Shown here in pieces: positions 11,764 to 31,150 of a DNA stretch of 49,905 nt. Under the pieces are notes generated by a model. The model worked only from the letters and a program-made list of their open reading frames with translations, was not told where the DNA came from and did not search any database. Made by a program: the position numbers and the translations under genes. The stretch lies in NCBI GenBank assembly GCA_037134595.1, contig JBAXLX010000001.1:1-49905 (forward strand), written 5' to 3'. The DNA comes from Pseudomonadota bacterium. Lineage in GTDB: Bacteria > Pseudomonadota > Alphaproteobacteria > Rhodobacterales > Rhodobacteraceae. Numbering within the stretch: position 1 is the first letter of the stretch; each line of letters starts with the position of its first letter.

Positions 11764-11773
11764 GGAGAGACAG

Positions 11774-16323: not shown

Positions 16324-16674
16324 ATGAAATATGAGTTTAAAATCTTAAGTGCTACTGCACTTTACTTAATCCTATCGACGGTGCCTGTTTACGCCGCTCC
16401 TGGAATTGTGATCGGTTTTTCATACAATTTCGGCACGGAAACACCCAAGTTAGGCGTAACGACCAAAGTGCTGTCTTCTGACGAGCTGGACGACGTGGTT
16501 GCCGCAGCGGGTGTCACGTATTTTTTCGATGACAACAGTATCGGTTGGGATGCTGGGCTGGGCTATACATTTGACGGCGGGGCGGCAACCCTGTCCTATG
16601 ATTTCCGGCATAAATCCCCTCAATTTTCTCTGGGGTTTGGCGACATTCATGCTCCCGAGCGTCACAACATTTAA
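16324..16674 (+). CDS. Exported hypothetical protein, possibly small beta-rich outer-membrane protein
   Basis: Signal-peptide-like N-terminus ending VYA-A; alternating aromatic/Gly beta-strand pattern. Confidence 0.7.
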   Translation: MKYEFKILSATALYLILSTVPVYAAPGIVIGFSYNFGTETPKLGVTTKVLSSDELDDVVAAAGVTYFFDDNSIGWDAGLGYTFDGGAATLSYDFRHKSPQFSLGFGDIHAPERHNI

Positions 16675-16825
16675 AGTTTATGATGACCCCGAGTTTCCAT
16701 CCGATTCATTAGCATAGCGTATGTTTTTCGTCAGGATACCGGAACTTATTTTTGTCAATAAATTCGTTTTACAAAATCGCAGGTGTGCCAAAACAGATGT
16801 TTGAGTAGGGATAATTTGGACCCAT

Positions 16826-19800
16826 ATGAAACATATCAGGATTGATCTGCTCCGATCCATGCAAAATACGACTTGCTCAGATCATCAGGTGGACAGGCGG
16901 GAGTATCGAGTGGCAAAGCAACAAAAAAACTCGTTAATTGCTGCGCCTTCGCTGGTATCGAAGGGGTTGTCGCTATTGAGCGAGGCCAAGCCTGCTGATG
17001 CCTATGCGGCGTTTCGCCTAGGCTTAAACTTAGCGCCAAACGATCCATTCCTTCATACCGCTTTGGCCCGCACCTGCCTTATTTTATCGGCAACCCACTT
17101 GGCGGCCTATCATGCGCAAACCGCACTGGAGCATGAATCCCAAAATTTGGATGCTATAATCCTTTTGGCGGAAGCGGCACGCAGAGAGGGAAATCGGGAT
17201 CTTTGCTTGAAACAAATGGCGAAATTTGCCAATATCCCTGCCGCAAAAAGAATGCACCGTTGGCTTGAATTGAGCCTGACGATTGAAGATGGCGATTTTG
17301 AAAATGCCCTCTGCGACATCGCGGCACTTCTCGAAGAAACCCCCAACGATCCCATGTTTGAAAGCCTATTCGAGAAAGGCTTCGACTTCTTTAAGGTCGT
17401 TGCGGATCAAACCCGGTTTGAGTCTTTTGTCGATGGCCTTGGCCTGTCTTGCGCGCCCAATGTCAGCCCCCCTCAATTCAGCGCAGCAGGACCAGAGCAA
17501 GGGTCGATTGATGTCATCATTCCGGTCTTTAATGCCCTGAATGATCTTCAGGCCTGCTTGAATTCAATACGTCATTGCAAGTCGCCTGCCTTGGGTAAAA
17601 TTATTCTCGTGGACGACTTTTCTGATCCACCCACAGCCAACTGGATGCAGGAACTGGTTGCCAAAGAGCCAAACATCGTCCTTCTGCGCAATCTGGAAAA
17701 TCTGGGATTCACGCGTACCGTGATGAAAGGTTTGGCCTATAGCACGTCGGCGTTTCCTGTGATCTTAAACAGCGACACATGGGTAACTTTGGGGTGGCTT
17801 GACGGATTGTGGCAGGCAATGCAGTGCCAACCCACCACGGCTTTGGTGGGTCCATTATCAGACAACGGCTATCATCAAACAATCATGCCGAAGACAAGCG
17901 TTACATCTGCACCCTTTGCCGGGCCTATTGAAGCGTCTGCCCATGTTGACCGTGCCGCAGCGATGGTTTTACTAAACTCACGAAAGAAATATCCTGTTGT
18001 TCCGCTGCTTTCGGGATTTTGCCTGATGATTCGGCGCGAAGCCTATGATCGCGTTGGGGGTTTTGACGCGGGGGCCTTCCCGGAAGGCTATTGGGAATTG
18101 CAAGATCTGGGTTTCAAACTTATTGATCAAGGCATGAAGCTTGTGATTGCCGATGACGTTTTTGTGCATCATGCCGGCAGCGCCAGTATTTCGAGTGACC
18201 GCAAGAAAAGATTGCACAGCGCGGGCCTTGTTAAGATGTACAAGCGCTATTCGGCGCTTAGGCTTCTTACGGCCGAGCGACTCGCTGCTCATGAACCCGA
18301 AATCGAACACCACAAACGGGGATGGTGGCGGGATGACATGCAATTGAACAAAATGTCACCCAACCGCTTTACCGCCGAAATGGGAGATGAAACCAGGCCT
18401 CGGATGAGCTGCCGTATTCTTTTGCAACCAAAGGGTGATTTCGCTGAGCGCGAGGTTTGCTTATTCGTCGTGCATGCGCCCTACGGAACCGCATCCGAAT
18501 ATACGAAAGCTTATATCCGCGCGGTTCGGGATGCTCATGTTTATGTCATCGTTTGCCTTGTGGTGGAGGAGTTGGACATTCCCGTTGACGCCGCCCTATT
18601 GGCGGCTTCAGATGCCCTGATGATCCGGTTGAACGGCGGCTATGACTTTGCGGTTTGGGCCGATATGTTGGTAACCTGTCCGCAAGTTTGGTCAGCAGAT
18701 CGACTGTATTTTCTGAATGACAGTATTACAGGGCCCTTTGCGCCCTTGGATCCGATTTTTGACAAAATTAGGATGGCGGATGCGGGTTTTTTTGCATTAA
18801 CCGAAGCGGTCTATCCGGACTATCACGCCCAGAGTTTCTTTTTTGGATGGTCGCAAGCCAATCTAAGTGCGCCCGCCCTGCGCGCATTTTGGGAGTCTGT
18901 ACGTGTACACCGAGATAAGGCACTGGTTATCAATCTTTACGAAAAGAGCATTTCACCGCTGAGCACGAATCTGCCTGATCAGACTCAGCAAATCGTTTTT
19001 AACTTAAGGGACTTTTTTGATATGGATGCTAAGTCAGTGGTTGACTTTTCACCAACTCATAAGGGTTGGCAGAAACTAATTGACGGTGGTTTCCCATTTA
19101 TTAAAACAGATGTTATTAGAGATGAAATGCACTCAAGTATTATAACTACAAATTGGAGGGAACACTGTGTGTCTAAAGGAGCTGATATAGACATGTTAAA
19201 CCGTCACGTCGAAATGTCACGTACAAACCGTCTTCAAAGGTTTTCATCTTTGCCGCTTGGTGACGCCAAGGCAGAACCACTTGGGGACGCCAAGGCAGAT
19301 CTCAATGCGAAAGAAGCGCGTCCGAAGCGTTCTGCATCGGTAAAAAGGCGCCGCATTTTTTTCCATATTGGGTTTGGCAAGACCGGATCCTCCACCTTGC
19401 AACGCTTTTTGTCGCGCAACGCTGCACAATTGGAAAGTTTGGGCGTATCCTATCCCCACCCAGAGACGCACGATGGGCTAACTGGATGGATCGGTAATTT
19501 ATTTCCCAACATAATGCAACGCGCGCGACAATTTGGGACCGGCTATCAGCAGCATCAAGATATCGTTGACCAACAGTTTGCGCTGACTGTGGACGCCGCA
19601 TTATCCGAAAGCAAGGCTTCAACGGTCGTGTTCTCGGGTGAGTTTATGGGTTCTTATCTAAATACTCATACATTGAAATATCTCAAGAACCTATCTGAGT
19701 ATCATGACGTTTCCTTAATAGCCTTTGTGAGGGATAGTTATGATCATGCCATGTCAAGTTGGAAGCAAATTGTTAAGGCTAACGTCTATCGCAGTTCCTT

Positions 19801-20485
19801 TGATACATGGGTCAACGCAACTTTGGATACAGAGAAGTTACCTGTCCAGCGTTTACATCTCATTGCAATGTCTGGGATTGATGTTAAAATTTTCAATTAC
19901 GACCACCATAAGAAATCTCTGGCTTCTACGTTTATGCAGATCATCGGGCTTGACCCGGTCTCGCCGGGTATCATTTACGAAGATGACCTGATCGTGAATC
20001 CATCTTTTTCCTATTGGCAGTGCAGATCAATCGTTATGGCGCAGTCCCAGACTGGGGCCACCTATCTTTCAGCAATGCTCCTCAATCAGTTTCACGAATT
20101 GCCGGATTTTCGGAAAGATCCGGTCATCGCGGATATTGATTCGTTGATTTTGAACAGGCTTTCTGTCGAGACAGCCTGGGTGAATGAGCACCTGCCAGAA
20201 TCGGAGCGCCTGCGTGAGACAGCCAGAGATGTCATGTCTTTGGAAGAGCCCGAGTTTTCCGATGCCGATGTGTCACTGCTTATGGCCACGGTCGGCGATT
20301 ACATCAGAGCCGTGAAGATACCGACCACGCTTCCACAGGAACTGCTTACGGCGGGCTTACCTGCAGATTTCAATCCTGAGGAATATTTGGTCCTTAATCC
20401 CGATGTTGCAAAGGCAAAGGTAGGCGCCGCAGAACATTACTTGGATCACGGCCGCCACGAGGGTAGACCTTACCGCGCGAGCTAA
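16826..20485 (+). CDS. Multidomain glycosyltransferase: TPR + GT2 + RgpF-like + sulfotransferase-like + C-terminal motif
   Basis: TPR-like helices; GT2 motifs IDVIIPVFN, VDDFS, NLGF, LNSDT; RgpF-like NGGYDFAVW, LNDSITGP, HAQSFF, FPFIK; HIGFGKTGSSTLQ; C-terminal FNPEEYLVLNPDV..HYLDHGRHEGR. Start could be GTG 16910. Confidence 0.85.
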   Translation: MKHIRIDLLRSMQNTTCSDHQVDRREYRVAKQQKNSLIAAPSLVSKGLSLLSEAKPADAYAAFRLGLNLAPNDPFLHTALARTCLILSATHLAAYHAQTALEHESQNLDAIILLAEAARREGNRDLCLKQMAKFANIPAAKRMHRWLELSLTIEDGDFENALCDIAALLEETPNDPMFESLFEKGFDFFKVVADQTRFESFVDGLGLSCAPNVSPPQFSAAGPEQGSIDVIIPVFNALNDLQACLNSIRHCKSPALGKIILVDDFSDPPTANWMQELVAKEPNIVLLRNLENLGFTRTVMKGLAYSTSAFPVILNSDTWVTLGWLDGLWQAMQCQPTTALVGPLSDNGYHQTIMPKTSVTSAPFAGPIEASAHVDRAAAMVLLNSRKKYPVVPLLSGFCLMIRREAYDRVGGFDAGAFPEGYWELQDLGFKLIDQGMKLVIADDVFVHHAGSASISSDRKKRLHSAGLVKMYKRYSALRLLTAERLAAHEPEIEHHKRGWWRDDMQLNKMSPNRFTAEMGDETRPRMSCRILLQPKGDFAEREVCLFVVHAPYGTASEYTKAYIRAVRDAHVYVIVCLVVEELDIPVDAALLAASDALMIRLNGGYDFAVWADMLVTCPQVWSADRLYFLNDSITGPFAPLDPIFDKIRMADAGFFALTEAVYPDYHAQSFFFGWSQANLSAPALRAFWESVRVHRDKALVINLYEKSISPLSTNLPDQTQQIVFNLRDFFDMDAKSVVDFSPTHKGWQKLIDGGFPFIKTDVIRDEMHSSIITTNWREHCVSKGADIDMLNRHVEMSRTNRLQRFSSLPLGDAKAEPLGDAKADLNAKEARPKRSASVKRRRIFFHIGFGKTGSSTLQRFLSRNAAQLESLGVSYPHPETHDGLTGWIGNLFPNIMQRARQFGTGYQQHQDIVDQQFALTVDAALSESKASTVVFSGEFMGSYLNTHTLKYLKNLSEYHDVSLIAFVRDSYDHAMSSWKQIVKANVYRSSFDTWVNATLDTEKLPVQRLHLIAMSGIDVKIFNYDHHKKSLASTFMQIIGLDPVSPGIIYEDDLIVNPSFSYWQCRSIVMAQSQTGATYLSAMLLNQFHELPDFRKDPVIADIDSLILNRLSVETAWVNEHLPESERLRETARDVMSLEEPEFSDADVSLLMATVGDYIRAVKIPTTLPQELLTAGLPADFNPEEYLVLNPDVAKAKVGAAEHYLDHGRHEGRPYRAS
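19253..19300 (+). repeat. In-frame 24-bp tandem duplication (PLGDAKAE/PLGDAKAD)
   Basis: ccgcttggtgacgccaaggcagaa followed by ccacttggggacgccaaggcagat. Confidence 0.9.
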
Positions 20486-20838
20486 AGCTGAACAAACTCA
20501 TGGTGTCGCACACCAGGTTAAACCATGGAAACGGCGGAAATGGAATTGTTGGGTGCTTTCATGAAGCGTTCCAGTTTAGAATTTAGTGCGGTGTCGGTTC
20601 GAGGTTCTCGTCTTTTATGACTGTTCCATAAAGGGTAATTCTCTGGGCGCACCCTGCGGTAAACCCGACGGAGTTTGCTGCTCTACGACCAAGAGGGTCC
20701 GCATTTGCCTGCGGACTGCAGGACGCCCTTGCAGTCATTGAAGAAATGCGACACACTAGTGCGCGAGGTGTTTAGGACGCCGCCACACTCCGTTGCAGGA
20801 TGTGGTTTGTATTCAGCTCCGAGCGGAAGATAGATGCG

Positions 20839-21927
20839 ATGCAAGATGAATTGACCGATTGCAAAAAGACGAACCGTAAAATATTTCTTCATATTGGAAT
20901 GCACAAAACTGGAAGCACAGCCATCCAATCTGCATTCCATGGATATGATAACGGGCGACTTTTGTATGCGCCGTTAGAGAATGAAAACCACTCTATACCC
21001 TTTTATACGGCCTTCTCTGGTGATCATTTTTCTTATCACATTTGGCAGACGGCGGGTTTAAGCGATTTAGAGATTGCGGCCAAGCAGAGGTTCTATTTAA
21101 AGGAAATTGAACAGATACTGTCTTTGAACAAGGATCGCGATGTTTTCTTTTCTGGTGAAGACATTTCAGTCATCAGCAAATCTGGCGTTGAACAGATCGC
21201 TTCGTTATTCAAAAAAGTAGACAGAGACGTAACGGTGATCGTGTATGTGCGTTCTCCATTATCATATGCCACTAGTGCTCTTCAGGAAATCATAAGACAA
21301 GGCTCCACCAATCCTGTACCTGAACGACCTGATTATCGTTTTAAAATTGAAAAATTTTTGGATGCATTTGGTTGCCAGAATGTTTTGATTAGAGATTTTC
21401 ATGATTTGCAAAACTCGAGTGGTGATGTCGTGCGGGATATTTCTCGATTACTGAACGCTACATCTGTTCAGAGCGTGGGGTTGCTTAATGTGGGCTTTTC
21501 AACCGAAGCGATTAAGGTTGTCTGTAAAATTAACAAGGTGATCCGTGCGATTGGCGAGCCAGGCTGGGCTCGTGAATGTCGAACACGTTGCATCAATCAT
21601 GTTCGGTCTATTCTACCTGGTAAGTTTGAAGTGCCTGCTCATCTGATGTCCGCCTGCATTGATAGCGATGACATCGACTGGCTCCGCTCAGTCTCTGGAA
21701 TCGACTACAGAAGCGATGTTTCGGTAGCTCGAGGTCAAGCAACTGGGAGTTTGGGAGAGTTTCTTAGTGAAATCAATACGTCTACAAAAGATGTGATTGT
21801 GGAAGCGTTATTGGCCAGGGATGAACCGGAAAATCTACCACAGCAAACAGATCCGCTCATCTTGAGATACCTTTTGTCATTTGCAAACTATGATGAAAGG
21901 AAACTCGATCCGAATCGTTATGTTTGA
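20839..21927 (+). CDS. Sulfotransferase-like P-loop protein, C-terminus truncated
   Basis: LHIGMHKTGSTAIQ, FFSGED, VIVYVRSPLSYATS; paralogous to the last catalytic domain of 16826..20485. Confidence 0.75.
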   Translation: MQDELTDCKKTNRKIFLHIGMHKTGSTAIQSAFHGYDNGRLLYAPLENENHSIPFYTAFSGDHFSYHIWQTAGLSDLEIAAKQRFYLKEIEQILSLNKDRDVFFSGEDISVISKSGVEQIASLFKKVDRDVTVIVYVRSPLSYATSALQEIIRQGSTNPVPERPDYRFKIEKFLDAFGCQNVLIRDFHDLQNSSGDVVRDISRLLNATSVQSVGLLNVGFSTEAIKVVCKINKVIRAIGEPGWARECRTRCINHVRSILPGKFEVPAHLMSACIDSDDIDWLRSVSGIDYRSDVSVARGQATGSLGEFLSEINTSTKDVIVEALLARDEPENLPQQTDPLILRYLLSFANYDERKLDPNRYV

Positions 21928-21931
21928 GTGG

Positions 21932-22071
21932 GAGTGGTGGCTTGGGAAAGCTAAACAGCTTGGATAAGTGGATTTTCTGATCAACAGCGGCTTGGTGCCT
22001 TAAGCGATCGGAAGATCATGACAAAACGACCGCGCCCGAACGATAGTGTGGCAATTAAAACAAAAGTGGCA
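21932..22071 (+). mobile_element. IS3-family left-end remnant
   Basis: AGTGGTGG...AACAGCTTGGATAAGTGGATTTTC leader, then ATG 22018 MTKRPRPNDSVAIKTKVA, resembling the IS3 OrfA start M-x-K-R-P-R-R-N-H-S-x-x-F-K-A-K-V-A (from recall). Confidence 0.55.
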
Positions 22072-22134
22072 GGTGCGGCGCAACATTATTTGGAACATGG
22101 TCGGCGTGAGGGGCTTCCCTACCGCGCGGGGTAA
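22072..22134 (+). pseudogene. Detached C-terminal tail of the 20839 gene
   Basis: Encodes GAAQHYLEHGRREGLPYRAG*, compared with GAAEHYLDHGRHEGRPYRAS* at the end of the 1219-aa protein. Confidence 0.75.
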
Positions 22135-22967
22135 GGCTGTTGCGACATATTTGGAGAACTGGGCAATCCGGACATGCGATGTTGCTAAGACAGGGCGTCA
22201 GTGACTCTGCTATCAGCGCGGGAGTGTCGAGCTCCGGGGCAGATCAACTGTTTGAGGGGCTGTTGAACCACACCGGTCAGCTATTTCGAGATTTTTTGCG
22301 GGTTTGCGAAGATGGTTATGGCCTGAGTGTTGAAAGCCTAAAGTCAGCAGCCGGTGTGCCGTTGGCAACTTTGGGGTGGTTTTCAAATAAGCGTGCCTCG
22401 GCCAACACGCGCAACCGCCCTCTTTAAGGGATCGCAGATGCGCAGGTTGCCGCCCTAACAAGGTGTGCGGAACGTGATCGTGGGGGGGCGCCAGCGAAGG
22501 GTTAGGCCAAAGCCGTCGGGCGACCCTTATCGCGGCCAGACGAGAGGGAGCCGGTCGCGCCGCAGCTTTTGGTCATTGACTGCCAAGTTTGGGAAGGGCC
22601 TCGGCGTTCGTCAAAGCGGGTATCGTCGCTTATAAGGGGCCGCGCGGGTTGGAGGATGGGCGCCGCAGGCACCGTTCAGCGTGCCTGACGTGAAGGCCGC
22701 CGCATCGTGCGAGACGAGGTGGGTGATACGAAGATTGGGCATGGCCGCACCCGAACCGATGCAGAGTATCGCGTGACATCTGCGCGTTTGGTCAGTCCAT
22801 GTGCAAGTTTGTGCTCTGTCGCCCATAGTGGGTGCAGGAACCGCCAAAAGGCTATTTTTAAATCTTCGTTCGTCGTTTGTGGCAAAAGATGATGCTGGCG
22901 TGAAGGGCGCGTTTTGCGTAAAGCCCAAGTCACCGGCATCTGCGGTAGTATTTTGGGCAAATGGCAG

Positions 22968-23426
22968 TTAAAACAACAGCTTATACGTATTACCCAAAGT
23001 ATCCGTCACAGTCCCCGTGCCGCTTTCCGTGCCCGAGCCAGTGATAAACCGCCCCTGCACCCGTGCCCCGTCGGTGCAGACGGCATAAATCTCGCCGGAA
23101 TTCACGCCGCCGACATCGGTGACCGATTTGTTCAACTTTCCACCCGTGCTTTGCAGCGTCAGCGACAGGCCGCGTTCTTTTTCGATGACGCGGGGGGCGA
23201 CAGAGGTCCAGGTGCCGTTGCAGCGGTTCTTTTTACCCGGGCCGGGCAGAACAAAGCTGATATCGGCCGAGGCTGTCGTTTGATTGCTGACCTTGACAGC
23301 GATGATTTGCGAAGGATTGCTTTGCTTGATCGGCCCGTCAATCGGGTAAAGGCGCAGGTTGACGCTGGGGCCGCCACAGGCGGTCAGCGTGGCCAAAAGG
23401 CCAGCAGCTAAAACATTGCGTTTCAC
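22968..23426 (-). CDS. Lipoprotein, copy A (outside the element)
   Basis: AAGGAGG RBS, GTG start, MKRNVLAAGLLATLTA-C lipobox. Confidence 0.85.
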   Translation of the reverse strand: MKRNVLAAGLLATLTACGGPSVNLRLYPIDGPIKQSNPSQIIAVKVSNQTTASADISFVLPGPGKKNRCNGTWTSVAPRVIEKERGLSLTLQSTGGKLNKSVTDVGGVNSGEIYAVCTDGARVQGRFITGSGTESGTGTVTDTLGNTYKLLF

Positions 23427-23494
23427 AGGTTCGGCCTCCTTGGCCACAGGTTGGGCCAAAGGCCAGCGGCTGACAGGTTTCGCGTGAAGCTCTC

Positions 23495-23518
23495 GGCAGT
23501 TGGCTGGGGCGCTAGGAT
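23495..23518 (-). other. att core copy (3' end of tRNA-Gln plus 6 nt)
   Basis: GGCAGTTGGCTGGGGCGCTAGGAT is identical to 31070..31093; similarity stops abruptly at 23519, inside the T-loop. Confidence 0.92.
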
Positions 23519-23569
23519 ACCATGAAAGGGGAAGAAAGGACGAGGAAAAGCTGGTGTGGTTGAAGAAGG

Positions 23570-23589
23570 TGGGGCAGCGGCTGGGGCAG
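23570..23589 (+). repeat. Putative integrase arm-type sites, left (TGGGGCAG x2, 12-bp period)
   Basis: Copies at 23570 and 23582; the same pair recurs at 30516 and 30528. Confidence 0.7.
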
Positions 23590-23859
23590 TTAAGGCAAAC
23601 GACGGTATTTCACGTCACGGTCATTTCCAAGCAGGCCGATGGGCTCGCACAGAGGGGCCTCACAATCTTGCACGGCCAAGGAGAACGGGTCACCGAGTTT
23701 TCGTCTTGTGTTTCCATCGACCATTTCGACCCGAGCCTGATCCCGAAGTTCGCACAACGATAAAACTTGATTTGCAGGAAAGTAAGCCAACCTAGCGAAA
23801 AGCTCAATTTGGAGTCTATCGTTTATTGCTTTGGATACCTAAGTTGGTCGAGACACTTC

Positions 23860-24240
23860 CTAAGTGTTTTGACGAGCACAATCGTCGCTTGCGGAAACCA
23901 CTCGCTTAACCCAAGGCACCGTTAGAGCGGAATAATACTTGAAAATCTGAAAGCTACCATCTGTATTTATGTCCGCGCTAACTAGGTCGTATGAGCCTGC
24001 GGTCATGTTAACTCGCTTGCCTGTGCGGGTTTCCTCACGTCGAACTTGAAACTCACCCAGGCGATTGTCGAAGAATGCAAAATATACACATTGCTCCATT
24101 TCGCTAAGGTTTTTGGGCGAAAATGAATTTGTGCCAAGTTCAGTGTAGAACGATTGGTTGACCCTTGAAGGTGCAGCAAATGCGCACGCCGAAAGCAACG
24201 TAACCGTCATTAAGTGTGACAGATATTTCTTCTTGGTCAT
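23860..24240 (-). CDS. Putative lipoprotein
   Basis: MTKKKYLSHLMTVTLLSA-C lipobox; GAGG upstream. Confidence 0.75.
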   Translation of the reverse strand: MTKKKYLSHLMTVTLLSACAFAAPSRVNQSFYTELGTNSFSPKNLSEMEQCVYFAFFDNRLGEFQVRREETRTGKRVNMTAGSYDLVSADINTDGSFQIFKYYSALTVPWVKRVVSASDDCARQNT

Positions 24241-24358
24241 GGGGTACCCTCAGCTCGTTTGCATTCAGGTATTTGTCGATCATTTCTGTTTTCGTAGCAA
24301 TCAAAAAAACTGAGCAACTTCCTGTATCTAAATAAAGAAACAGAAACAGGAGCTTAAG

Positions 24359-24517
24359 ATGAAACTGCTATCCGCCCTCGGCCTTTTGGCCGGGGGTTTT
24401 GTTTTGGTGCCCAAGGGTCTTTGGGTGTTCGTGGCCTTGTGGGGTTTGGCGAAGGTACAGCCCTTGGCAATGGTCACGCTGCTTGGGGTGTGGCTGCTGG
24501 TGGAGCGGTGGCTATGA
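24359..24517 (+). CDS. 52-aa hydrophobic membrane peptide (below the ORF-track cutoff)
   Basis: CAGGAG RBS; MKLLSALGLLAGGFVLVPKGLWVFVALWGLAKVQPLAMVTLLGVWLLVERWL; ATGA-coupled to the next ORF. Confidence 0.65.
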   Translation: MKLLSALGLLAGGFVLVPKGLWVFVALWGLAKVQPLAMVTLLGVWLLVERWL

Positions 24518-24711
24518 AGCCTGGGCCCGTTAGACCTGGGGATGTGGTCACTATACGAGCCTTCGACGATGTGCCGGAACATCAGTTCCTGGTGGACGAG
24601 GTGTTCGAAGACTTCGTTACAGGCTTTGCGGTGACAGGTGACTTGGCAGGAGAATATGGAGAGCCTGCGCTAGTCATGGTTCTCAAGAATCCCTCTAAGC
24701 CAAAGAAGTAA
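24514..24711 (+). CDS. 65-aa hypothetical protein
   Basis: ATGA overlap with the upstream stop; MKPGPVRPGDVVTIRAFDDVPEHQFLVDEV... Confidence 0.65.
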   Translation: MKPGPVRPGDVVTIRAFDDVPEHQFLVDEVFEDFVTGFAVTGDLAGEYGEPALVMVLKNPSKPKK

Positions 24712-24766
24712 ATCAGAAAAATGAGAAACAACACAGCAATGGGGCCTTTGCCCCAAAGGAGGACTC

Positions 24767-25984
24767 ATGTCTCTTAGGATACAATATGCTTACCTCAAGC
24801 AGCAGACTTGGTTGTATCGGCGCAACTACCCGGTTGAAATGCAAGCGGTGCTAGGGGCTGCGTTGAAGCAGTCTTTGAAGACGGGTGACGCCAAGGTGGC
24901 CAAGGTTCGCGCTGCCGAGGTGAACGCAAAGTATGAAGAGATCGTATCAAAGGCGCGAGACGGGGTGGTGCTGGGTCGGCCAGAACCGATCCGCGTGTCG
25001 CCCAAGGTCTTCGCCCCGGTCGTCGTCATAGGGCGGTTGCCTGTGGCTAAGCTGGCCAAAGACTATCTGGCAAAGCGGGCGAAAGACCTGCAGCCGGGTG
25101 GGTACAAGAGCGTGCGGTTCAGTGTGGGGCTGTTCGCTTCGGCCTACGGTGACAGGCAGGTGGCGCAGGTGACCCGAGAAGACGCTGCCAGCTTCGTTCG
25201 GCGGTTGGGTGACCTGTCAAGGGATGTGGGCAAGTCTTATCGGGCAAAGGGGCTAGGGCTGGATCAGCTGGTGAAGATCAGTGCTGGTCAGAAGATCTTG
25301 CCCCAGACCCAGCGCCGGATCGTCACTCAGGTGGGCCACTTTCTCGACTGGGTGGTCTATCAGGGTGAACTGGCAGCCAATCCGTTCAGCACAGTGCGGG
25401 TCGAAGGCAAGGCCAAGGTGCACAGCTATGTGGCCCCGACGGACGAAGAGGTGCGCAGGCTGGTGGGGTTAGCTGATGCAGTCATTGGCGATGTGTTGAA
25501 GGTCTGCCTCTTGTCAGGAATGCGGTCGGGGGAAGCGGTTGGCCTGGTGCGGGAAGATCTGGTCTGGAAGGGCAACTTGGGATGGTTTGCTTGGGTGCGC
25601 CCTAACGCGGTTCGCAGCTTAAAGACCGATGCAGCCGAACGGTTGGTTCCCTTGCACTCTGCCCTGACAGCGGTGCTTGGGCGACGGCCAGAGGGGGAAA
25701 GGTTGTTTCCCGAACTAGATGTGTCGGTGGTGACCAAACGCTTTGCTAAGCTGAAGGGTCAGGTTGGGGTTGATCGTCCTGGCTTTGTGTTTCACTCGAC
25801 GCGAAAGTGGTTCGTGACGCAGTGCGAGCGTGCTGGGGTGCCGGAGCATTGGACCGCTTCAATCGTCGGCCACCAGTCTGCTAGGTCAGAGAACCGGATG
25901 ACCTATGGCATCTATTCGGCTGGTATCAGCGACGAACAGAAACGCGAGATCGTAGAGAAGGTGGGCCTGCCTTGGCACCCCTGA
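24767..25984 (+). CDS. Tyrosine recombinase/integrase with DUF6538-like N-terminal domain
   Basis: WLYRRNYP..LKQSLKTGD N-terminus; catalytic SGMRSGE (R), LKT (K), FHSTR (HxxR), VGH (H), MTYGIY (Y); AGGAGG RBS. Confidence 0.95.
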   Translation: MSLRIQYAYLKQQTWLYRRNYPVEMQAVLGAALKQSLKTGDAKVAKVRAAEVNAKYEEIVSKARDGVVLGRPEPIRVSPKVFAPVVVIGRLPVAKLAKDYLAKRAKDLQPGGYKSVRFSVGLFASAYGDRQVAQVTREDAASFVRRLGDLSRDVGKSYRAKGLGLDQLVKISAGQKILPQTQRRIVTQVGHFLDWVVYQGELAANPFSTVRVEGKAKVHSYVAPTDEEVRRLVGLADAVIGDVLKVCLLSGMRSGEAVGLVREDLVWKGNLGWFAWVRPNAVRSLKTDAAERLVPLHSALTAVLGRRPEGERLFPELDVSVVTKRFAKLKGQVGVDRPGFVFHSTRKWFVTQCERAGVPEHWTASIVGHQSARSENRMTYGIYSAGISDEQKREIVEKVGLPWHP

Positions 25985-26157
25985 CACCCGTTCCAGACAT
26001 CGACGCGTTCGAGGAGAGGGCCGCTATCAGGCAGTATGATGGGGGTGTCACTCGTGCTAGGGCCGAAGACGAGGCTGCAAGGGCGCAGGGCTTCCGGGAT
26101 GCTGCCCACTATCGTCAGGTGCTGGCAGACTATGTGGTTTCGGGTAGACTGACGTAA
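25972..26157 (+). CDS. Small mobile-element protein (FEERAAIxxYDGG motif)
   Basis: Overlaps the integrase stop; I recognise the motif from small phage/island proteins, function unknown. Confidence 0.65.
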   Translation: MAPLTPVPDIDAFEERAAIRQYDGGVTRARAEDEAARAQGFRDAAHYRQVLADYVVSGRLT

Positions 26158-26162
26158 GAACA

Positions 26163-26190
26163 ACCCTCGGCGGCTTCGGCTGCCGGGGGT
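26163..26190 (+). repeat. C(UUCG)G hairpin, copy 1
   Basis: ACCCTCGGCGGC-TTCG-GCTGCCGGGGGT; 26/27 identical to 27313..27339. Confidence 0.85.
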
Positions 26191-26254
26191 GCAATAAGCC
26201 TAACGAGAACTTTGCCTTGCGTGATCCATACACAAGAAAGAATGCCAAATGAAA

Positions 26255-26734
26255 ATGGAAGTTGTGTCTAAATATGCCAACCTGCTGCTTGCAGTGCTTT
26301 TTCCGGCTGCCTAGTTTGCTCCGCTTATCAGAACTGGTTTGTTTCGGCCACCTCCATTGCCCTGGCCATTCGATTGGGATCTTTTTAGCCTGAAAGGCGT
26401 TTCTGTCGTATCAGGGCTTCAGGCTCTTTGGGAAAAAGATGTGTTTTTGGCAATCGCAGTCACGTTTTTTGCCCTTGTTGCTCCTTTGCTGAAATGCTTG
26501 GGGCTCGCATTGATTGACTTTGGACTTCTGGACAAGCGAGTGAAGCCCGTCATTGGGGTATTGGGGAAGCTTGCAATGGCCGATATCTTCATCCTTGCGA
26601 TGTGTGTCATTGTAGCAAAGGGTATAGGCATAGGCGAGATAGAGGTGGCTTGGGGCCTGTATCTTTTCACCGGCTGCGTCATAGCTTCGTTGCTTCTTTC
26701 CATAAGGGAGCCTGGCTTGAACTATGCTAAGTAA
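26255..26734 (+). pseudogene. PqiA (paraquat-inducible protein A)-family membrane protein with premature TAG
   Basis: MEVVSKYANLLLAVLFPAA*FAPL...APLLK...LGKLAMADIF; in-frame TAG at 26312 where Trp (TGG) is expected. Confidence 0.7.
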
Positions 26735-27305
26735 GCTCAGGAATATAATAGTTATTTTGGCATTAGTGATATCCTTGTGCCTCAATATAGCGATTGTGAC
26801 GGTGCAGTCCGTTGCGACTGGTGTATCGGCGATGGTGAGCGCCGTTGCGGGGGCGTCGGCTGTGCTACCTGAACTACGGTCAGTGATTTATAAAGGTGAA
26901 CGGAAGACGGTTGCCGAGGTGGTCAAAAGCACAACGAAGCGCATTGCACGCCGCACGGCGTTTGATGCAACAAGAAATGTTTCATCTACCTTCGGGGAAG
27001 CCGTTCCAGCAATTGGGATCGGTGTGATCGCTGGGGTAAGTGCTTGGGAGTTGAAGGATTCATGCGATACGATGCGCGATTTGCATGAACTCGACGTCGC
27101 GTTGGATCCCTCTATGGCTAACGATGCAGCGGCTACCGAAGTATGCGGCCTTAAAGTTCCCACGAAGGAGGAAATCTGGGCGAAAGTAAAAGCTAGTCCC
27201 GGTGAGGCATGGGAGATGGCTAAGGCCATGGTCCCAGACTTACCAGATATGCCCGCCCTGTCCTTGCCTGAAATGCCTGAGATCGACTGGAAGTTCTGGG
27301 ATTGA
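26724..27305 (+). CDS. Hypothetical membrane-anchored protein
   Basis: N-terminal hydrophobic helix, GGGAG RBS, Pro-rich tail; overlaps the pqiA-like stop. Confidence 0.8.
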   Translation: MLSKLRNIIVILALVISLCLNIAIVTVQSVATGVSAMVSAVAGASAVLPELRSVIYKGERKTVAEVVKSTTKRIARRTAFDATRNVSSTFGEAVPAIGIGVIAGVSAWELKDSCDTMRDLHELDVALDPSMANDAAATEVCGLKVPTKEEIWAKVKASPGEAWEMAKAMVPDLPDMPALSLPEMPEIDWKFWD

Positions 27306-27312
27306 CCATTAG

Positions 27313-27339
27313 ACCCTCGGTGGCTTCGGCTGCCGGGGG
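27313..27339 (+). repeat. C(UUCG)G hairpin, copy 2
   Basis: ACCCTCGGTGGC-TTCG-GCTGCCGGGGG directly after the 27305 stop. Confidence 0.85.
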
Positions 27340-27481
27340 AGCCTGACTTTCCTTTTTTTATCGTTTTCCACGAAAACATGGCAGTCAGGGCCTTTCTTTC
27401 CTGGCGAGTTTTATGAGGTTTCCGGCCACGTGCATGCAACCTTTAGGATTTTTTGGTCAACTTTAAGGTGACGATCTTGAT

Positions 27482-27598
27482 TTTGGCGTGACTTTACTGT
27501 ATTTCACGGCTGTCGAGGCGATGAGAGGGGGATTGAGAAGACGACTTTGGCGATTGAGCGGCCTACGGCTCTGGAAAAATTTTTGGCGTAATTTGGCG
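27482..27598 (+). repeat. Four TTTGGCG direct repeats in an intergenic region
   Basis: Copies at 27482, 27546, 27582 and 27592. Confidence 0.6.
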
Positions 27599-27653
27599 TT
27601 ACCTTTCATGATCCAATTTCAGGGTCTCTAGGTCGCTGTTAACAAGGAAGTTC

Positions 27654-28127
27654 ATGATGGCTATTCACGTTACCGAGACGCAGAAACTGATACTGAAATC
27701 TGGCTATTTGGCCGCCTCTGAGCGGGGCGAAGACCTTGACCAACAAACCTGCGAAGAAATTGTCAGAGCAATGCTTTTGATTGAGCGTTCTGGCATGCAG
27801 CCCTACTTCCTGAAGGGCTACAATTGGTCGTGTCGGTCAAGAGCTCACGGCAATCATCGGCAAATTGAAGAAGAGTCCGAGGAGTTGGAAGCTCGAGTTG
27901 AGGAGTTCAATTTCCGGATAGCCACGTCGCAAGGACATGCCGCATCAAGGATCAGGTCCAATCGCGTGCGGAGCATCAAGGCTATCGAGGGGCACGATAA
28001 TCAAGTGCTTGTTGCTGAGGCTAGATTTGGTGAATACTGGCAAGTGGCATTAAGACGGGCTGACTTTTTGAGGTTTGGCCAAGCTAACGACGTTGATCGG
28101 CCAGATCCGCAAGTCAATGCCGCCTGA
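27654..28127 (+). CDS. Hypothetical protein
   Basis: 157-aa ORF with AAGGAAG RBS, followed by a hairpin. Confidence 0.7.
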   Translation: MMAIHVTETQKLILKSGYLAASERGEDLDQQTCEEIVRAMLLIERSGMQPYFLKGYNWSCRSRAHGNHRQIEEESEELEARVEEFNFRIATSQGHAASRIRSNRVRSIKAIEGHDNQVLVAEARFGEYWQVALRRADFLRFGQANDVDRPDPQVNAA

Positions 28128-28135
28128 TTGACACT

Positions 28136-28159
28136 GGAAGGGGGCTTCGGCCCCCTCCC
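28136..28159 (+). terminator. C(UUCG)G hairpin upstream of the polymerase-like gene
   Basis: GGAAGGGGGC-TTCG-GCCCCCTCC. Confidence 0.6.
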
Positions 28160-28183
28160 TTATCCTTTGATCAGGTATAAGTA

Positions 28184-29704
28184 ATGGAAGAAGAAGAACA
28201 ATTTGAGATACTGAAGGAGGCTATTGCTGTTCCTCCTCCCCCCATAGAAGATCCTTGGTACTCTAGGCCTATAGACGTTCATCGCTGGTCGGATCATCCC
28301 GAACTCGCGGGGTTAGCAGAGAGGTTATGGGTAGCCTACTGTTTCGATATGGAACGAAAGGCATCTTCGCCTGGACCACGACCTAAGACCAGCTTCCGGC
28401 ATCAGTTCAGGGTCCTCCTTCTGGACCTGTATGTTGCTTGGTTAGAAGATCCCCGGTTGTGTATCGGGGTGGCCATGTCAGTGAACTATTGGGATACCAC
28501 TAGCCGCTATAATGCCCTGAATATTTCAAAGCAGATCATTCCTATCGTGAAACGTCTGACCGATGTGGGGCTACTTGACCTCGCGAGGGGCAGTTATGCG
28601 GGACCCACGGCGATAACCAACAGAACAACGAGAATAAGGGGGTCAAAGGCCTTGCGTGACATGTTTCAATCGTTGACTGCCACACGGGATGACGTGAAAC
28701 GGATTGAGTCTGAGGAGTGCATTATCCTGCGTGAAGGGCTGGTCGTGGGCGATGGAACAAAGATCTATGACTACAAGGACACTGATGAAACCAATCGCAT
28801 GAGAGACGAACTCAGAGCCTACAACAAGGTTTTGGTTGATGCTTTCATCGATATACCGAGCCTAGATGAACCCGTCGTGCAAAGGACGGATCAGTTTGGA
28901 AAGGTGTTCATACAGCCCCTAGATCATCACCATCACTTTGTCAGACGGGTGTTTAGCCGTGGCTCTTGGCAGATGAATGGGCGGTTCTATGGGGCTTGGT
29001 GGCAATTGATCCCCAGTGACCTGAGGAGAGGCATCTACATCAACGATACGCCGACAGTTGAGGTGGACTTCAAGGGACTGCATGTGTCTTTGTTGAGTGC
29101 TGAACAGGGTGTAGCAATGGAAGGTGACCCGTACACCTTGGACGGGCTGGTTATTCCAGGAGTGCCCGCTGCCCTTCAGCGATCATTGGTTAAGCAGCTT
29201 GTCTTGACAGCCCTGAACGCGAAGGACCGTAAGTCTGCGTTTCAGAGTTTCCGAGACGGGTGGCCTGCTAATCATTATGGAAAAGGGATGCTCAACGAAG
29301 AACTGTCAGTGCTTCTTGATGCTTTCACTGGGCAACACCCTCACCTGAAAGAGCTTGTGTGTGCTGATCAGGGCATCCGGTTGATGAACGTGGACAGTCG
29401 AATAGCGGAGAGGGTGCATTATCATTTCACACGTCAAGACGTCCCGGTGCTGTCGGTTCATGATAGCTTCTTCATCGACTACACCCGCGTTGGGGAACTG
29501 AAGCAGGTCATGGCGGAAGCTTCTACTGCCGTGGTGGGGCGGCCGATGGCTGTGTCTGCTTCAGGTCTGGGTGTTGATGAGGTTGAGCCTGATTTCCGGT
29601 TGGATTTCGTGGGCTGGGCTCAGCTTCCTCGTTCCCCTGCTTATCTTCGTAGGATGTCGGCTTGGGAGGCTAGGTTAGGTTGGGAGGTTATTCCATATAG
29701 ATAG
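28184..29704 (+). CDS. Compact superfamily-A polymerase-like protein (PolA / T7-RNAP / TV-Pol-like palm) with probable N-terminal winged helix
   Basis: NGRFYG (~266), motif A VEVDFKGLH (D295), motif B RSLVKQLVLT (R333/K337), motif C LSVHDSF (D427). Confidence 0.75.
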   Translation: MEEEEQFEILKEAIAVPPPPIEDPWYSRPIDVHRWSDHPELAGLAERLWVAYCFDMERKASSPGPRPKTSFRHQFRVLLLDLYVAWLEDPRLCIGVAMSVNYWDTTSRYNALNISKQIIPIVKRLTDVGLLDLARGSYAGPTAITNRTTRIRGSKALRDMFQSLTATRDDVKRIESEECIILREGLVVGDGTKIYDYKDTDETNRMRDELRAYNKVLVDAFIDIPSLDEPVVQRTDQFGKVFIQPLDHHHHFVRRVFSRGSWQMNGRFYGAWWQLIPSDLRRGIYINDTPTVEVDFKGLHVSLLSAEQGVAMEGDPYTLDGLVIPGVPAALQRSLVKQLVLTALNAKDRKSAFQSFRDGWPANHYGKGMLNEELSVLLDAFTGQHPHLKELVCADQGIRLMNVDSRIAERVHYHFTRQDVPVLSVHDSFFIDYTRVGELKQVMAEASTAVVGRPMAVSASGLGVDEVEPDFRLDFVGWAQLPRSPAYLRRMSAWEARLGWEVIPYR

Positions 29705-29810
29705 AGAAGGGGGGGAGGGAGGAGGAGAAGCTATGTATTACCAGTCCCCTACATTTCCTTCTTCTTCCATTACTTATACCTAATCCCTACTCAGCAAATA
29801 AGATGGGCTG

Positions 29811-30431
29811 TCATGCAGGAGAAGGAATTACAGAAACGTCTTCCAAAGAAGGAACAGCATCTTTCGTGAGAACATAGTATGCAAAGGCACCAACGATTAG
29901 AATTGCTATCAAACCGGTTGTGAGGGCTGCTGTCACCCCGATTGGTATCCCACCTATGATCAGTACCTCGCCTGCAGACACTGCGTTAGATAAGGCTATG
30001 GATTTGATTATTGTCATTCCAGCAATCTTGCCTGTGGTGACTTGACCTACCCAACTCCCAGCCCCGGCAGCAGCTGCCAAGAGTGGGCCACTCACAGAAG
30101 TAACTGCTGACGATCCGAAAACAACAAACGATCCAACTTGTACCATGGTGTAGGACACTGCCGTCGTCGCACCAAATGTGCCAGCGATGAAAGCCCCTGC
30201 CGCTGCGCCCGAAACCATTGCAATCTTGGTAGCGATTGCAGCGGCCCCAGCAGTTACAATGGTCGAACCTGCTAGTGCCCCCGCCGCAACACTAGCACCT
30301 GCACCCAAAGTGGCAGCGCCAGCAATCTTGGCAGCAGCTATAGCGTCTCGGTAATCAACAACCCCGTCGCCGTTAATGTCCAGAACACTGGATGCAGTCG
30401 ATGCGGCTTTTTTGATCTGTTTGAGTGTCAT
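29811..30431 (-). CDS. Membrane protein with EF-hand/dockerin-like loop and Gly/Ala-rich hydrophobic helices
   Basis: DINGDGVVDYRD followed by ~150 mostly hydrophobic residues; AGAGGA RBS. Confidence 0.75.
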   Translation of the reverse strand: MTLKQIKKAASTASSVLDINGDGVVDYRDAIAAAKIAGAATLGAGASVAAGALAGSTIVTAGAAAIATKIAMVSGAAAGAFIAGTFGATTAVSYTMVQVGSFVVFGSSAVTSVSGPLLAAAAGAGSWVGQVTTGKIAGMTIIKSIALSNAVSAGEVLIIGGIPIGVTAALTTGLIAILIVGAFAYYVLTKDAVPSLEDVSVIPSPA

Positions 30432-30515
30432 GATGCGATCCTCTGAACGAGTTACTCATCGAACACCAATTTTTGTCAAAGTGCTAGGGAAATCCGATCC
30501 ACGACACCCGCACCT

Positions 30516-30535
30516 TGGGGCAGTCGTTGGGGCAG
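30516..30535 (+). repeat. Putative integrase arm-type sites, right (TGGGGCAG x2, 12-bp period)
   Basis: Copies at 30516 and 30528, same spacing and orientation as the left pair. Confidence 0.7.
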
Positions 30536-30542
30536 TTTGCCG

Positions 30543-31001
30543 TCAGAACAACAATTTATAGGTGTTTCCCAAACTATCCGTCACAGTTCCCGTGCCGCTT
30601 TCCGTGCCGGACCCTGTGATAAACTGCCCCTGCACCCGCGTGCCATCGCGGCAGACGGCGTAAATCTCACCGTTGTTCACACCGCCCACATCGGTGACCG
30701 ATTTGTTCAACTTTCCACCCGTGCTTTGCAGCGTCAGCGACAGGCCGCGTTCTTTTTCGATGACGCGGGGGGCGACAGAGGTCCAGGTGCCGTTGCAGCG
30801 GTTCTTTTTACCCGGGCCGGGCAGAACAAAGCTGATATCGGCCGAGGCTGTCGTTTGATTGCTGACCTTGACAGCGATGATTTGCGAAGGATTGCTTTGC
30901 TTGATCGGCCCGTCAATCGGGTAAAGGCGCAGGTTGACGCTGGGGCCGCCACAGGCGGTCAGCGTGGCCAAAAGGCCAGCAGCTAAAACATTGCGTTTCA
31001 C
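30543..31001 (-). CDS. Lipoprotein, copy B (inside the element)
   Basis: Same RBS, GTG and lipobox as copy A; differs by about five residues, all in the C-terminal third. Confidence 0.85.
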   Translation of the reverse strand: MKRNVLAAGLLATLTACGGPSVNLRLYPIDGPIKQSNPSQIIAVKVSNQTTASADISFVLPGPGKKNRCNGTWTSVAPRVIEKERGLSLTLQSTGGKLNKSVTDVGGVNNGEIYAVCRDGTRVQGQFITGSGTESGTGTVTDSLGNTYKLLF

Positions 31002-31075
31002 AGGTTCGGCCTCCTTGGCCACAGGTTGGGCCAAAGGCCAGCGCCTGACAGGTTTCGCGTGCATCTTAGGGCAGT

Positions 31076-31150
31076 TGGCTGGGGCGCTAGGATTCGAACC
31101 TAGGTATGTCGGTACCAAAAACCGATGCCTTACCGCTTGGCGACGCCCCA
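31076..31150 (-). tRNA. tRNA-Gln (anticodon TTG)
   Basis: TGGGGCGTCGCCAAGCGGTAAGGCATCGGT-TTTTGGT-ACCGACATACCTAGGTTCGAATCCTAGCGCCCCAGCCA; cloverleaf with encoded CCA. Confidence 0.97.

What the first reader, a model, noticed from the sequence alone, without database searches (positions are those of the whole stretch)
23501..31093. 7.6-kb tRNA-Gln element: integrase plus polymerase-like gene, with no transfer or virion genes
Seen: tRNA 3'-end duplication, an internally placed tyrosine integrase with intact catalytic residues, the polymerase-like gene, several tiny ORFs and mostly membrane or lipoprotein cargo. I see no relaxase, T4SS, capsid, terminase, AlpA or repressor gene. It does not fit ICE, prophage, PICI/P4 or pipolin (PolB-based) layouts. 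Inference: a minimal self-replicating integrative element or satellite that depends on a helper such as a phage or gene transfer agent.
Basis: partly seen in the sequence, partly recalled or inferred. Interest (0 to 1): 0.75.

Follow-up and report, generated by a model that had tools for sequence, protein, structure and literature searches.

The report
Mini-polymerase island with paired start sites
A small DNA island inserted at a bacterial tRNA gene carries a stripped-down polymerase gene between two opposite-facing copies of a short conserved site, and sister islands carry a helicase in its place, so this poorly understood enzyme likely starts copying the island at those sites, which can now be tested directly.

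Summary
The element is real: 7,575 bp at tRNA-Gln(ttg), with an intact DUF6538 tyrosine integrase and a 506-aa protein modelled as a winged-helix domain plus PolA/T7-RNAP core without exonuclease. That protein is homologous to phage divPolA2 (Yutin 2024; function open: repair DNAP or RNAP) and resembles TV-Pol (Iyer 2008). The element belongs to a family: close integrases in 27 of 400 related genomes, 15 of them polymerase-positive. So the polymerase is likely the replication module, initiating at its own paired sites without a helicase. Not shown: activity, excision, amplification (reads show single copy) or any helper. The end repeat is 595 bp, not just the tRNA end. The scan earlier noted a broken TV-Pol island on other DNA. 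Verdict: new variant of a known, untested kind.

The parts
31076..31150 (-). tRNA-Gln(ttg), integration target (attL side)
31070..31093 (-). att core, tRNA-proximal copy (24 bp)
23495..23518 (-). att core, distal copy (24 bp)
30499..31093 (.). 595-bp direct repeat, copy inside the element (core + lipoprotein gene)
22925..23518 (.). 595-bp direct repeat, copy just outside the element; identical tract 23113-23468
   Evidence: doubled depth in run X1
30543..31031 (-). lipoprotein gene copy B (162 aa), lies between core and arm site; follows tRNA-Gln also in genus members without the element
22968..23459 (-). lipoprotein gene copy A (163 aa, 97% identical), outside the element
23570..23591 (+). 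TGGGGCA-N5-TGGGGCA direct repeat, likely integrase arm-type site; same motif next to att in relatives
30516..30537 (+). second arm-type site
23590..23790 (-). small ORF (66 aa or slightly longer), unknown; 64% homologue in sister element L245
23860..24240 (-). 126-aa predicted lipoprotein, cargo
24359..24517 (+). 52-aa hydrophobic ORF
24514..24711 (+). 65-aa conserved ORF upstream of the integrase in nearly all relatives (core gene, no family)
24767..25984 (+). DUF6538 tyrosine integrase, 405 aa
25972..26157 (+). 61-aa conserved ORF overlapping the integrase stop (ATGA/GTGA overlap in many relatives); core gene, possible excision factor
26163..26192 (+). GC-rich hairpin closing the integrase module; conserved in L001, L212, L214, L245, L305
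26339..27305 (+). cargo slot: PqiA-like membrane ORF (131 aa) and 193-aa ORF; replaced by 836 other bases in a sibling in run X2
27313..27342 (+). second copy of the hairpin
27654..28127 (+). 157-aa ORF, unknown, cargo
28140..28157 (+). terminator-like hairpin just before the left site
28169..28196 (+). left arm of the inverted repeat; holds the conserved site (15-bp core 28172-28186) and overlaps the polymerase start codon
28184..29704 (+). 506-aa divPolA2/TV-Pol-like polymerase: winged helix (about aa 36-170) + PolA/T7-RNAP-fold core (about aa 177-463); R267, D295, H300, R333, K337, L341, N345, H426-D427-S428
29758..29785 (-). right arm of the inverted repeat; conserved site (core 29782 to 29768) pointing back into the polymerase gene
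29811..30431 (-). 206-aa Gly/Ala-rich hydrophobic ORF, cargo (52% homologue in L037)

Best explanation
This is a tRNA-Gln integrative element whose 506-aa mini-polymerase likely serves as its helicase-free replication starter, binding two opposite-facing 19-bp sites and priming synthesis on each strand of the excised circle. Shown: an integration module (65-aa ORF, DUF6538 integrase, overlapping 61-aa ORF, arm sites, tRNA core) is joined, in relatives, to either this polymerase or a DUF5906 helicase; the paired site travels with the polymerase. Inferred: the integrase (perhaps with the 61-aa ORF) excises a circle; the winged-helix domain reads AATAGGTATAAGTAATGGA; the PolA/T7-like core starts de novo in the purine-rich tract, probably with ribonucleotides since the two rNTP-excluding residues of Pol I are replaced (H300 for E710, L341 for F762); the two sites, or a panhandle between the inverted arms on the displaced strand, start both strands; elongation is by the enzyme itself or by host polymerases. 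How the circle reaches other cells is unknown.
For: Fold: PolA/T7-RNAP core Z 12.3 (apicoplast PolA, rmsd 4.2, 251 aligned), 9.0 (yeast mtRNAP), 8.7 (T7 RNAP), no exonuclease, winged-helix N-terminus Z 5-6.6; catalytic D295/D427, R267, R333/K337 conserved in 98-100% of 114 diverse homologues. Swap: sister element L245 (integrase 96.5%) has a 483-aa DUF5906 protein plus HNH in the same slot and no site; 6 of the 10 polymerase-negative close-integrase genomes fetched (of 12) carry DUF5906; none in 28 other loci or the window by tblastn; sister pairs polymerase/DUF5906 on the integrase tree with support 1.0, 0.998, 0.997, 0.915, 0.68, 7 changes of 7 possible. Site: 14 of 16 long close-polymerase loci have it, 10 on both strands, versus 1 of 7 DUF5906 loci and 2 of 52 distant-polymerase loci; of 17 of 400 genomes with the exact 13-mer, 11 have it beside the polymerase gene or a fragment, control pattern 12 of 400; only 2 copies with up to 1 mismatch in the host genome, both here; conserved whether or not its ATG starts a gene, 79% purine in the next 25 nt over 31 instances. 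Divergent polymerases carry variant sites (L050, three copies on both strands; L305; L265). CCPol-MP shows a TV-Pol-type enzyme can prime de novo (PMC7581432, passages).
Against: No activity, excision or circle is shown; element depth equals host depth in two runs (78-81 vs 82-87 in X2; about 7 vs 4-8 in X1). The site was defined on the same loci it is counted in, and in six of the ten two-strand loci the pair lies inside long inverted repeats that also occur in polymerase-free elements (L216, L218), so the pair is independent evidence mainly in the window, L001, L035 and L048. Exclusivity is not perfect: L012 has a DUF5906-like fragment beside an intact polymerase, L224 has both in adjacent units, L220 has DUF5906 and degenerate sites. 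Four close-polymerase loci have the site on one strand only and two (L050, L305) lack the strict form. Most distant polymerases show no shared inverted site. Phage homologues sit in phages that have their own replicase (PMC11348598), so the family is not always replicative. The fold cannot tell DNA from RNA synthesis; the helicase it replaces has no primase domain by Pfam.
Confidence: 0.57

Rival explanations
1. The protein is a miniature single-subunit RNA polymerase and the sites are its promoters, used for transcription (self-expression, antisense control) rather than replication.
For: Site layout is T7-promoter-like (AT-rich start, variable middle, TAAT, then purines; T7 layout recalled); HDS motif C and no steric-gate Glu; RNAPs score close behind PolAs; Yutin et al. 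raise RNAP for divPolA2; left site overlaps the gene start behind a terminator-like hairpin.
Against: No copy in front of the integrase or cargo; right-arm copies open only 2-10 codon ORFs antisense to the gene; most copies lie 144-315 bp inside att pointing inward; replacement by a helicase makes little sense for a transcription enzyme; no repeated 14-mer (3 or more copies) in 50 kb of divPolA2 phage 2L372X.
Confidence: 0.2
2. The polymerase plus its two convergent sites is a selfish self-amplifying cassette that copies the segment between the sites and hitchhikes in these islands, not the island's replicase.
For: In the window and L001 the arms bracket just the gene; convergent geometry over the gene in most relatives; the gene comes and goes between sister elements.
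Against: No target-site duplication at the arms (sequence); in most relatives the sites sit by att and its arm sites; a replication helicase fills the slot when the cassette is absent; L035 has the pair divergent, which only works on a circle.
Confidence: 0.12
3. The polymerase is accessory cargo (repair or anti-phage, for example making nucleic acid from the convergent sites on infection) and the element does not replicate.
For: Relatives carry defence cargo (Thoeris-like, reverse transcriptases, Mrr, Type ISP, deaminase); phage homologues are accessory; 4 of 10 fetched polymerase-negative elements have neither module; single-copy depth.
Against: No PADLOC hit; fixed slot and near exclusivity with DUF5906; site tied to att geometry.
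Confidence: 0.08
4. The region is a decayed fragment of a larger prophage or ICE.
For: A low-GC island continues to about 16,000 beyond the distal att; many relatives hold broken copies.
Against: Both att cores, arm sites and intact genes; same compact layout in many genera and no phage or conjugation genes in 142 relative ORFs scanned; a 93-98% identical sibling in another run.
Confidence: 0.03

Closest known systems
divPolA2 of barbaviruses and ICP1-like phages (Yutin et al. 2024, PMC11348598; PHROG 4756)
   Same: Sequence homologue of the paper's model protein AUR84708 (tblastn E 5e-6, identity of record, hhalign probability 96%, E 6e-9; HMM E 5e-22); palm intact, no exonuclease, extra N-terminal domain; DNAP-or-RNAP question open.
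   Different: Here it sits in a 7.6-kb integrative element as the only replication-type gene, with a cognate inverted site; the N-terminal domain, unassigned in the paper, models as a winged helix; AUR84708 keeps Glu at the steric-gate position where this clade has His.
TV-Pol elements with lambda-type integrase (Iyer, Abhiman, Aravind 2008, PMC2579912)
   Same: Minimal PolA-family core, no nuclease, N-terminal extra domain, integrase neighbour, predicted prim-pol; Rhodobacteraceae named among hosts; motif register D-x4-H and K-x3-L-x3-N shared with Ma-LMM01 gp030, which I infer to be their phage member.
   Different: Similarity to gp030 is not significant (E 0.25; no HMM hit); no D5 helicase; the paper's main text reports no cis site, no tRNA-Gln family and no swap with DUF5906; its alignment could not be read.
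PICMI satellites (PMC10803314)
   Same: About 6-8 kb, tyrosine integrase, small integrase-overlapping gene, DUF5906-type replication gene in sister elements, no capsid genes.
   Different: No AlpA, not at fis, not Vibrionaceae; this copy has a polymerase instead of the primase-helicase; no helper known.
CCPol-MP of SCCmec (PMC7581432, PMC10061031)
   Same: A-family polymerase on an integrative element that primes de novo.
   Different: CCPol needs an OB-fold partner and a helicase, keeps E710/F762 and uses dNTPs; this protein has a fused winged helix, no helicase and lacks both residues.
Pipolins (piPolB elements; search listing and abstract start only)
   Same: tRNA-integrated, polymerase-encoding, defence-type cargo in relatives.
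   Different: Family A fold, not family B.
Cargo-carrying tycheposons (bioRxiv 10.1101/2020.12.28.424599, passages)
   Same: Small tRNA-targeted elements with integrase and interchangeable replication modules, tandem accretion, capture of flanking host DNA, no transfer genes.
   Different: Described from marine cyanobacteria; integrase clade relationship not tested; this polymerase and site were not seen in the passages read.

Membership tests
divPolA2 (Yutin 2024) | Sequence homology to divPolA2 representative AUR84708 | tested here: met
divPolA2 (Yutin 2024) | Intact palm, no 3'-5' exonuclease, N-terminal globular domain | tested here: met
divPolA2 (Yutin 2024) | Context: second polymerase of a lytic phage that has its own replicase | tested here: not met
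   integrative element in a bacterial chromosome, (protein family member, different context)
TV-Pol (Iyer 2008) | Beta-hairpin Arg, two catalytic Asp, RxxxK and conserved Asp in fingers | tested here: met
   R267, D295, D427, R333/K337, D315
TV-Pol (Iyer 2008) | No nuclease domain; neighbour is a lambda-type integrase, resolvase or transposase | tested here: met
TV-Pol (Iyer 2008) | Bi-helical coiled-coil thumb; all-helical TV-PolN domain | tested here: inconclusive
   one long helix 201-218 plus a hairpin, and an alpha/beta winged-helix N-terminus; TV-PolN sequences not available
TV-Pol (Iyer 2008) | Significant sequence similarity to listed members | tested here: inconclusive
   supplement unreadable; Ma-LMM01 gp030 aligns in register but E 0.25; about 62 kb in the middle of that phage was fetched but not searched
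TV-Pol (Iyer 2008) | Primase and polymerase activity | not testable with these tools
   needs biochemistry
PICMI | AlpA regulator | tested here: not met
   no hit in Pfam, PHROGs, NCBIfam
PICMI | Integration at fis | tested here: not met
   tRNA-Gln
PICMI | DUF3987/DUF5906 primase | tested here: not met
   absent from window and genome; DUF5906 present in sister elements
PICMI | Small gene overlapping the integrase | tested here: met
   61-aa ORF; homology to iolg not tested
Pipolin | Primer-independent family B polymerase | tested here: not met
   all top polymerase fold hits are family A or T7-like
ICE / IME | Relaxase, T4SS or coupling protein | tested here: not met
   an oriT-only form was not tested
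Prophage / PICI / P4-like | Capsid, terminase, AlpA, repressor, primase-helicase | tested here: not met
T7-like single-subunit RNA polymerase | Promoter-specific RNA synthesis; full-size N-terminal domain and specificity loop | tested here: inconclusive
   core fold Z 8.6-9.0 below PolA Z 10-12; no Pfam RNA_pol hit; much smaller; activity untested
Tycheposon | Integrase of the tycheposon clade | not tested
   no reference integrases fetched

The most novel reading that the evidence does not exclude
A one-protein replicon: a single 506-aa enzyme recognises a T7-promoter-like site on duplex DNA with its winged helix, opens it, primes de novo and copies both strands of the excised circle by strand displacement, using the inverted arms as a panhandle, with site sequence co-varying with the enzyme. 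It would be a living intermediate between DNA polymerase I and T7-type RNA polymerases and would give a function to thousands of unannotated proteins, including those of ICP1-like phages.
Probability: 0.28. Interest if true: 0.88.

Novelty: new variant of a known kind. Interest (0 to 1): 0.7.

Why it matters
The protein family is large (8,753 clusters at 50% identity with E up to 0.001), has no Pfam model, and its role was left open in print (repair DNA polymerase or RNA polymerase, PMC11348598; predicted prim-pol, PMC2579912). This locus supplies what a test needs: an intact gene, a precise candidate binding and start site found as an inverted pair, natural site variants that go with divergent enzymes, and a genetic argument (swap with a helicase) for replication. 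If right, it adds a helicase-free, sequence-specific PolA-fold initiator to the known replication strategies of mobile elements, offers a compact orthogonal replicon or promoter-polymerase pair, and describes a common cargo shuttle of the host's family (defence genes, transporters).

Tried and rejected
Sequence search of PDB with the protein and its profile found nothing. Exact-motif scans of viral contigs gave 37 hits, none with the polymerase or any element gene nearby; of 121 metagenome hits returned (scan cut at its limit) only 4 had the polymerase beside them, the rest are chance or short contigs. The search for related loci was insensitive (3 loci each). A de novo search for inverted sites around distant polymerases found only L265 and a 705-bp repeat in L262; a relaxed pattern fitted afterwards was unspecific (15 hits in the host genome) and missed L050, so it is not used. 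No shared short inverted site was found in DUF5906 elements. No sigma-70 promoter and no Rfam RNA other than the tRNA in the element, so a plain host promoter or RNA reading of the site was dropped. My recollection that ICP1 gp80 is an RNA polymerase was wrong: it is an HNH; the ICP1 homologue is ORF100. Reads gave no attP joint and no excess depth; these are contigs and the 595-bp repeat hides the junction, so this is no evidence against excision. RNA runs cover too little to say anything on expression. Genus-level searches added little. Literature searches that did not find this element family or site: (open-access library only). Assembly artefact for the 595-bp repeat was considered: doubled depth in X1 and the same duplication (78%) in G406 argue against.
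Full report
Observation. The tRNA-Gln(ttg) gene lies at 31076-31150 on the minus strand. Its last 18 bases plus 6 more form a 24-bp core that recurs exactly at 23495-23518, 7,575 bp away, and nowhere else in the 3.77-Mb assembly. TGGGGCA-N5-TGGGGCA repeats at 23570 and 30516 look like integrase arm sites and recur beside att in relatives. The integrase (24767-25984) has DUF6538 and Phage_integrase domains and intact catalytic residues. The 506-aa ORF hits only phrog_4756. No transfer, virion or AlpA gene was found in four libraries. The end repeat is longer than reported: 595 bp at 92%, holding a lipoprotein gene, with a 356-bp identical tract. That gene follows tRNA-Gln in genus members without the element (L246, L249, L250, L252) and is duplicated the same way, at 78%, in G406. 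I infer that an ancestor of the element captured the host gene next to att and that the two copies here later recombined.

The protein. The AlphaFold model (pLDDT 90) has a PolA-superfamily core at about 177-463: Z 12.3 to apicoplast PolA, 10.5 to Klenow, 9.0 to yeast mitochondrial RNAP, 8.7 to T7 RNAP, with no exonuclease. The N-terminal domain folded alone (pLDDT 94) matches almost only winged-helix proteins, at modest Z 5-6.6 and with no Foldseek hit below E 0.001. Across 114 diverse homologues R267, D295, R333, K337, N345 and D427 are 98-100% conserved and H300 93%. H300 and L341 stand where Pol I has E710 and F762, the residues that exclude ribonucleotides (PMC7581432, passages; the position match is my reading of the motifs), and motif C reads HDS as in T7-type RNAPs (recalled). 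The family is large. It includes phage proteins (89 records), among them AUR84708 (hhalign E 6e-9), the model protein of divPolA2, which Yutin et al. leave as repair DNAP or RNAP (PMC11348598, section 13 read). It also fits the description of TV-Pol with an N-terminal domain beside a lambda-type integrase (PMC2579912, whole main text read), but the supplement was unreadable and the likely phage member gp030 aligns only in register, E 0.25.

The family of elements. In 400 genomes of the host's family, 47 have a polymerase match and 27 a close integrase (E up to 1e-40); 15 have both. Close-polymerase loci are mostly at tRNA-Gln with the same 65-aa ORF, integrase and overlapping 61-aa ORF. Of the 12 integrase-positive, polymerase-negative genomes I fetched 10; 6 carry a DUF5906 helicase, often with an HNH gene, and 4 neither. 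The closest relative, L245 in the same genus, has a 96.5% identical integrase and DUF5906 plus HNH where this element has the polymerase. On an integrase tree of 24 proteins, polymerase and DUF5906 elements form sister pairs (support 1.0, 0.998, 0.997, 0.915, 0.68); among the 16 tips counted (9 polymerase, 7 DUF5906; L224, five 'neither' and two distant-polymerase tips left out) the label changes 7 times, the maximum, which 151 of 1,000 shuffles also reach, so module type carries no trace of integrase descent. No DUF5906 was found in 28 other loci, the window or the host genome. Exceptions: L012 has a DUF5906-like fragment beside an intact polymerase and L224 both in adjacent units. Differential loss from a two-gene ancestor is therefore not excluded. 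A sibling in run X2 is 93% (integrase module) and 98% (polymerase region) identical while host-like contigs of the same depth are about 86% identical, which suggests recent transfer if they are one genome.

The paired site. A 28-bp inverted repeat brackets the polymerase gene (28169-28196, 29758-29785), well above shuffles. Its core, TAGGTATAAGTAATG, is conserved upstream of the gene in relatives irrespective of frame. Over 31 non-redundant copies the consensus is AATAGGTATAAGTAATGGA followed by 79% purines in 25 nt. With up to 2 mismatches it is in 14 of 16 long close-polymerase loci, on both strands in 10; in 6 of 8 short or fragment loci; in 1 of 7 DUF5906 loci; 1 of 6 loci with neither gene; 2 of 52 distant-polymerase loci. 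Genome-wide, 17 of 400 genomes have the exact 13-mer, 11 of them beside the polymerase or a fragment; a twelfth (G362) is a remnant of the same element; the reversed control pattern occurs in 12. The host genome has two copies with up to 1 mismatch, both here, and three with up to 2. Most copies lie 144-315 bp inside att, pointing inward. The two loci without the strict form have divergent polymerases and variant sites (L050: AATAGACAC-AGTAATGGG, three copies, both strands; L305: one copy), and distant L265 has its own site four times on both strands. Caveats: the site was defined on these loci; six two-strand cases lie in 300-515-bp att-anchored inverted repeats that also occur without the polymerase (L216, L218), so those repeats belong to the integrase family; most distant polymerases show no such site.

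How it likely works. Shown: anatomy, co-occurrence, swap, site association. Inferred: excision by the integrase, possibly with the 61-aa ORF by analogy to PICMI iolg, which is needed for excision (PMC10803314, passages and sections 6, 10); site binding by the winged helix; de novo priming in the purine tract; one start per strand, as in strand-displacement replicons, or via a panhandle of the arms (IncQ and adenovirus analogies, recalled); self-repression through the site over the start codon. Because the element has no helicase, the enzyme must open the site itself and either displace strands or hand over to the host. Rivals are a mini-RNAP for transcription (0.2), a self-amplifying cassette (0.12), accessory cargo (0.08) and a decayed prophage (0.03). 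Reads show single copy and no junction, which is uninformative for contigs. The host has a GTA gene and three capsid-family genes elsewhere; GTA heads hold about 4-5 kb (recalled), less than the element, so a GTA helper is doubtful, and phage, vesicle or mobilisation routes are all open.

Novelty and score. Ten searches of the open-access library did not show this element family, the site or the swap; unread supplements of PMC2579912 and PMC11348598 may list bacterial members. I rate it a new variant of a known but biochemically untested kind, interest 0.7, because it turns an open question into a direct assay.

Noticed in passing
L002, L034, L037, L039, L040, L041, L216, L218, L220 (e.g. L034 8881-9394 vs 11281-11794): Many relatives hold a complete attP-like site in inverted orientation inside the element, with 250-515-bp inverted repeats (mostly 94-100% identical, 90% in L039) starting at the att core and enclosing the replication gene (polymerase or DUF5906). 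As a circle this has the two-unique-arcs-and-inverted-repeat shape of the yeast 2-micron plasmid (recalled); origin unexplained.
   Followed up: partly
L262 7314-8018 vs 12348-13052: A distant polymerase from another family is flanked by a perfect 705-bp inverted repeat that starts with a tRNA-end-like sequence: the same architecture with a different target.
   Followed up: partly
L265 8555, 10969, 11050, 13112: Distant 658-aa polymerase with its own repeated site ATAGTCGTATAATG on both strands around the gene.
   Followed up: partly
L298 3032-4699 (ICP1 ORF100); L255 5512-6777: Vibrio cholerae phage ICP1 ORF100 and Aeromonas phage 2L372X_029 are divPolA2/phrog_4756 members, annotated as hypothetical; several phages have two copies.
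   Followed up: partly
window 16000-22900: A second low-GC stretch (0.49) beyond the distal att: 1219-aa TPR-like/GT2/RgpF/sulfotransferase protein (16826-20485), a 375-aa sulfotransferase-like ORF, and a degenerate repeat of the big gene's 3' end at 22068-22139; probably older island accretion.
   Followed up: no
L217 807-3589; L034, L039, L218; L035, L216; L036; L038: Defence-type cargo in relatives: Thoeris-like TIR/SIR2 genes, reverse transcriptases, Mrr, Type ISP methylase, dCTP-deaminase-like gene.
   Followed up: no
L001: Record titled Variovorax paradoxus MAG, but its tRNA-Gln flank is 70-77% identical and syntenic to this host's; probably a misbinned contig of the host's family.
   Followed up: no
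L305 3211-15703: Paracoccus versutus pBEN carries a tandem of this element at a tRNA-Gln on the chromid, with a truncated older copy.
   Followed up: partly
window 26163-27342: Two copies of a 30-bp hairpin bracket a cargo slot that is exchanged in siblings (836 other bases in run X2; another gene in L245).
   Followed up: partly
window 45900-48000: Small low-GC patch before guaA with an outer-membrane beta-barrel-like ORF (45929-46588) and a sulfotransferase-like ORF (47317-47985); labels by eye from the translations.
   Followed up: no
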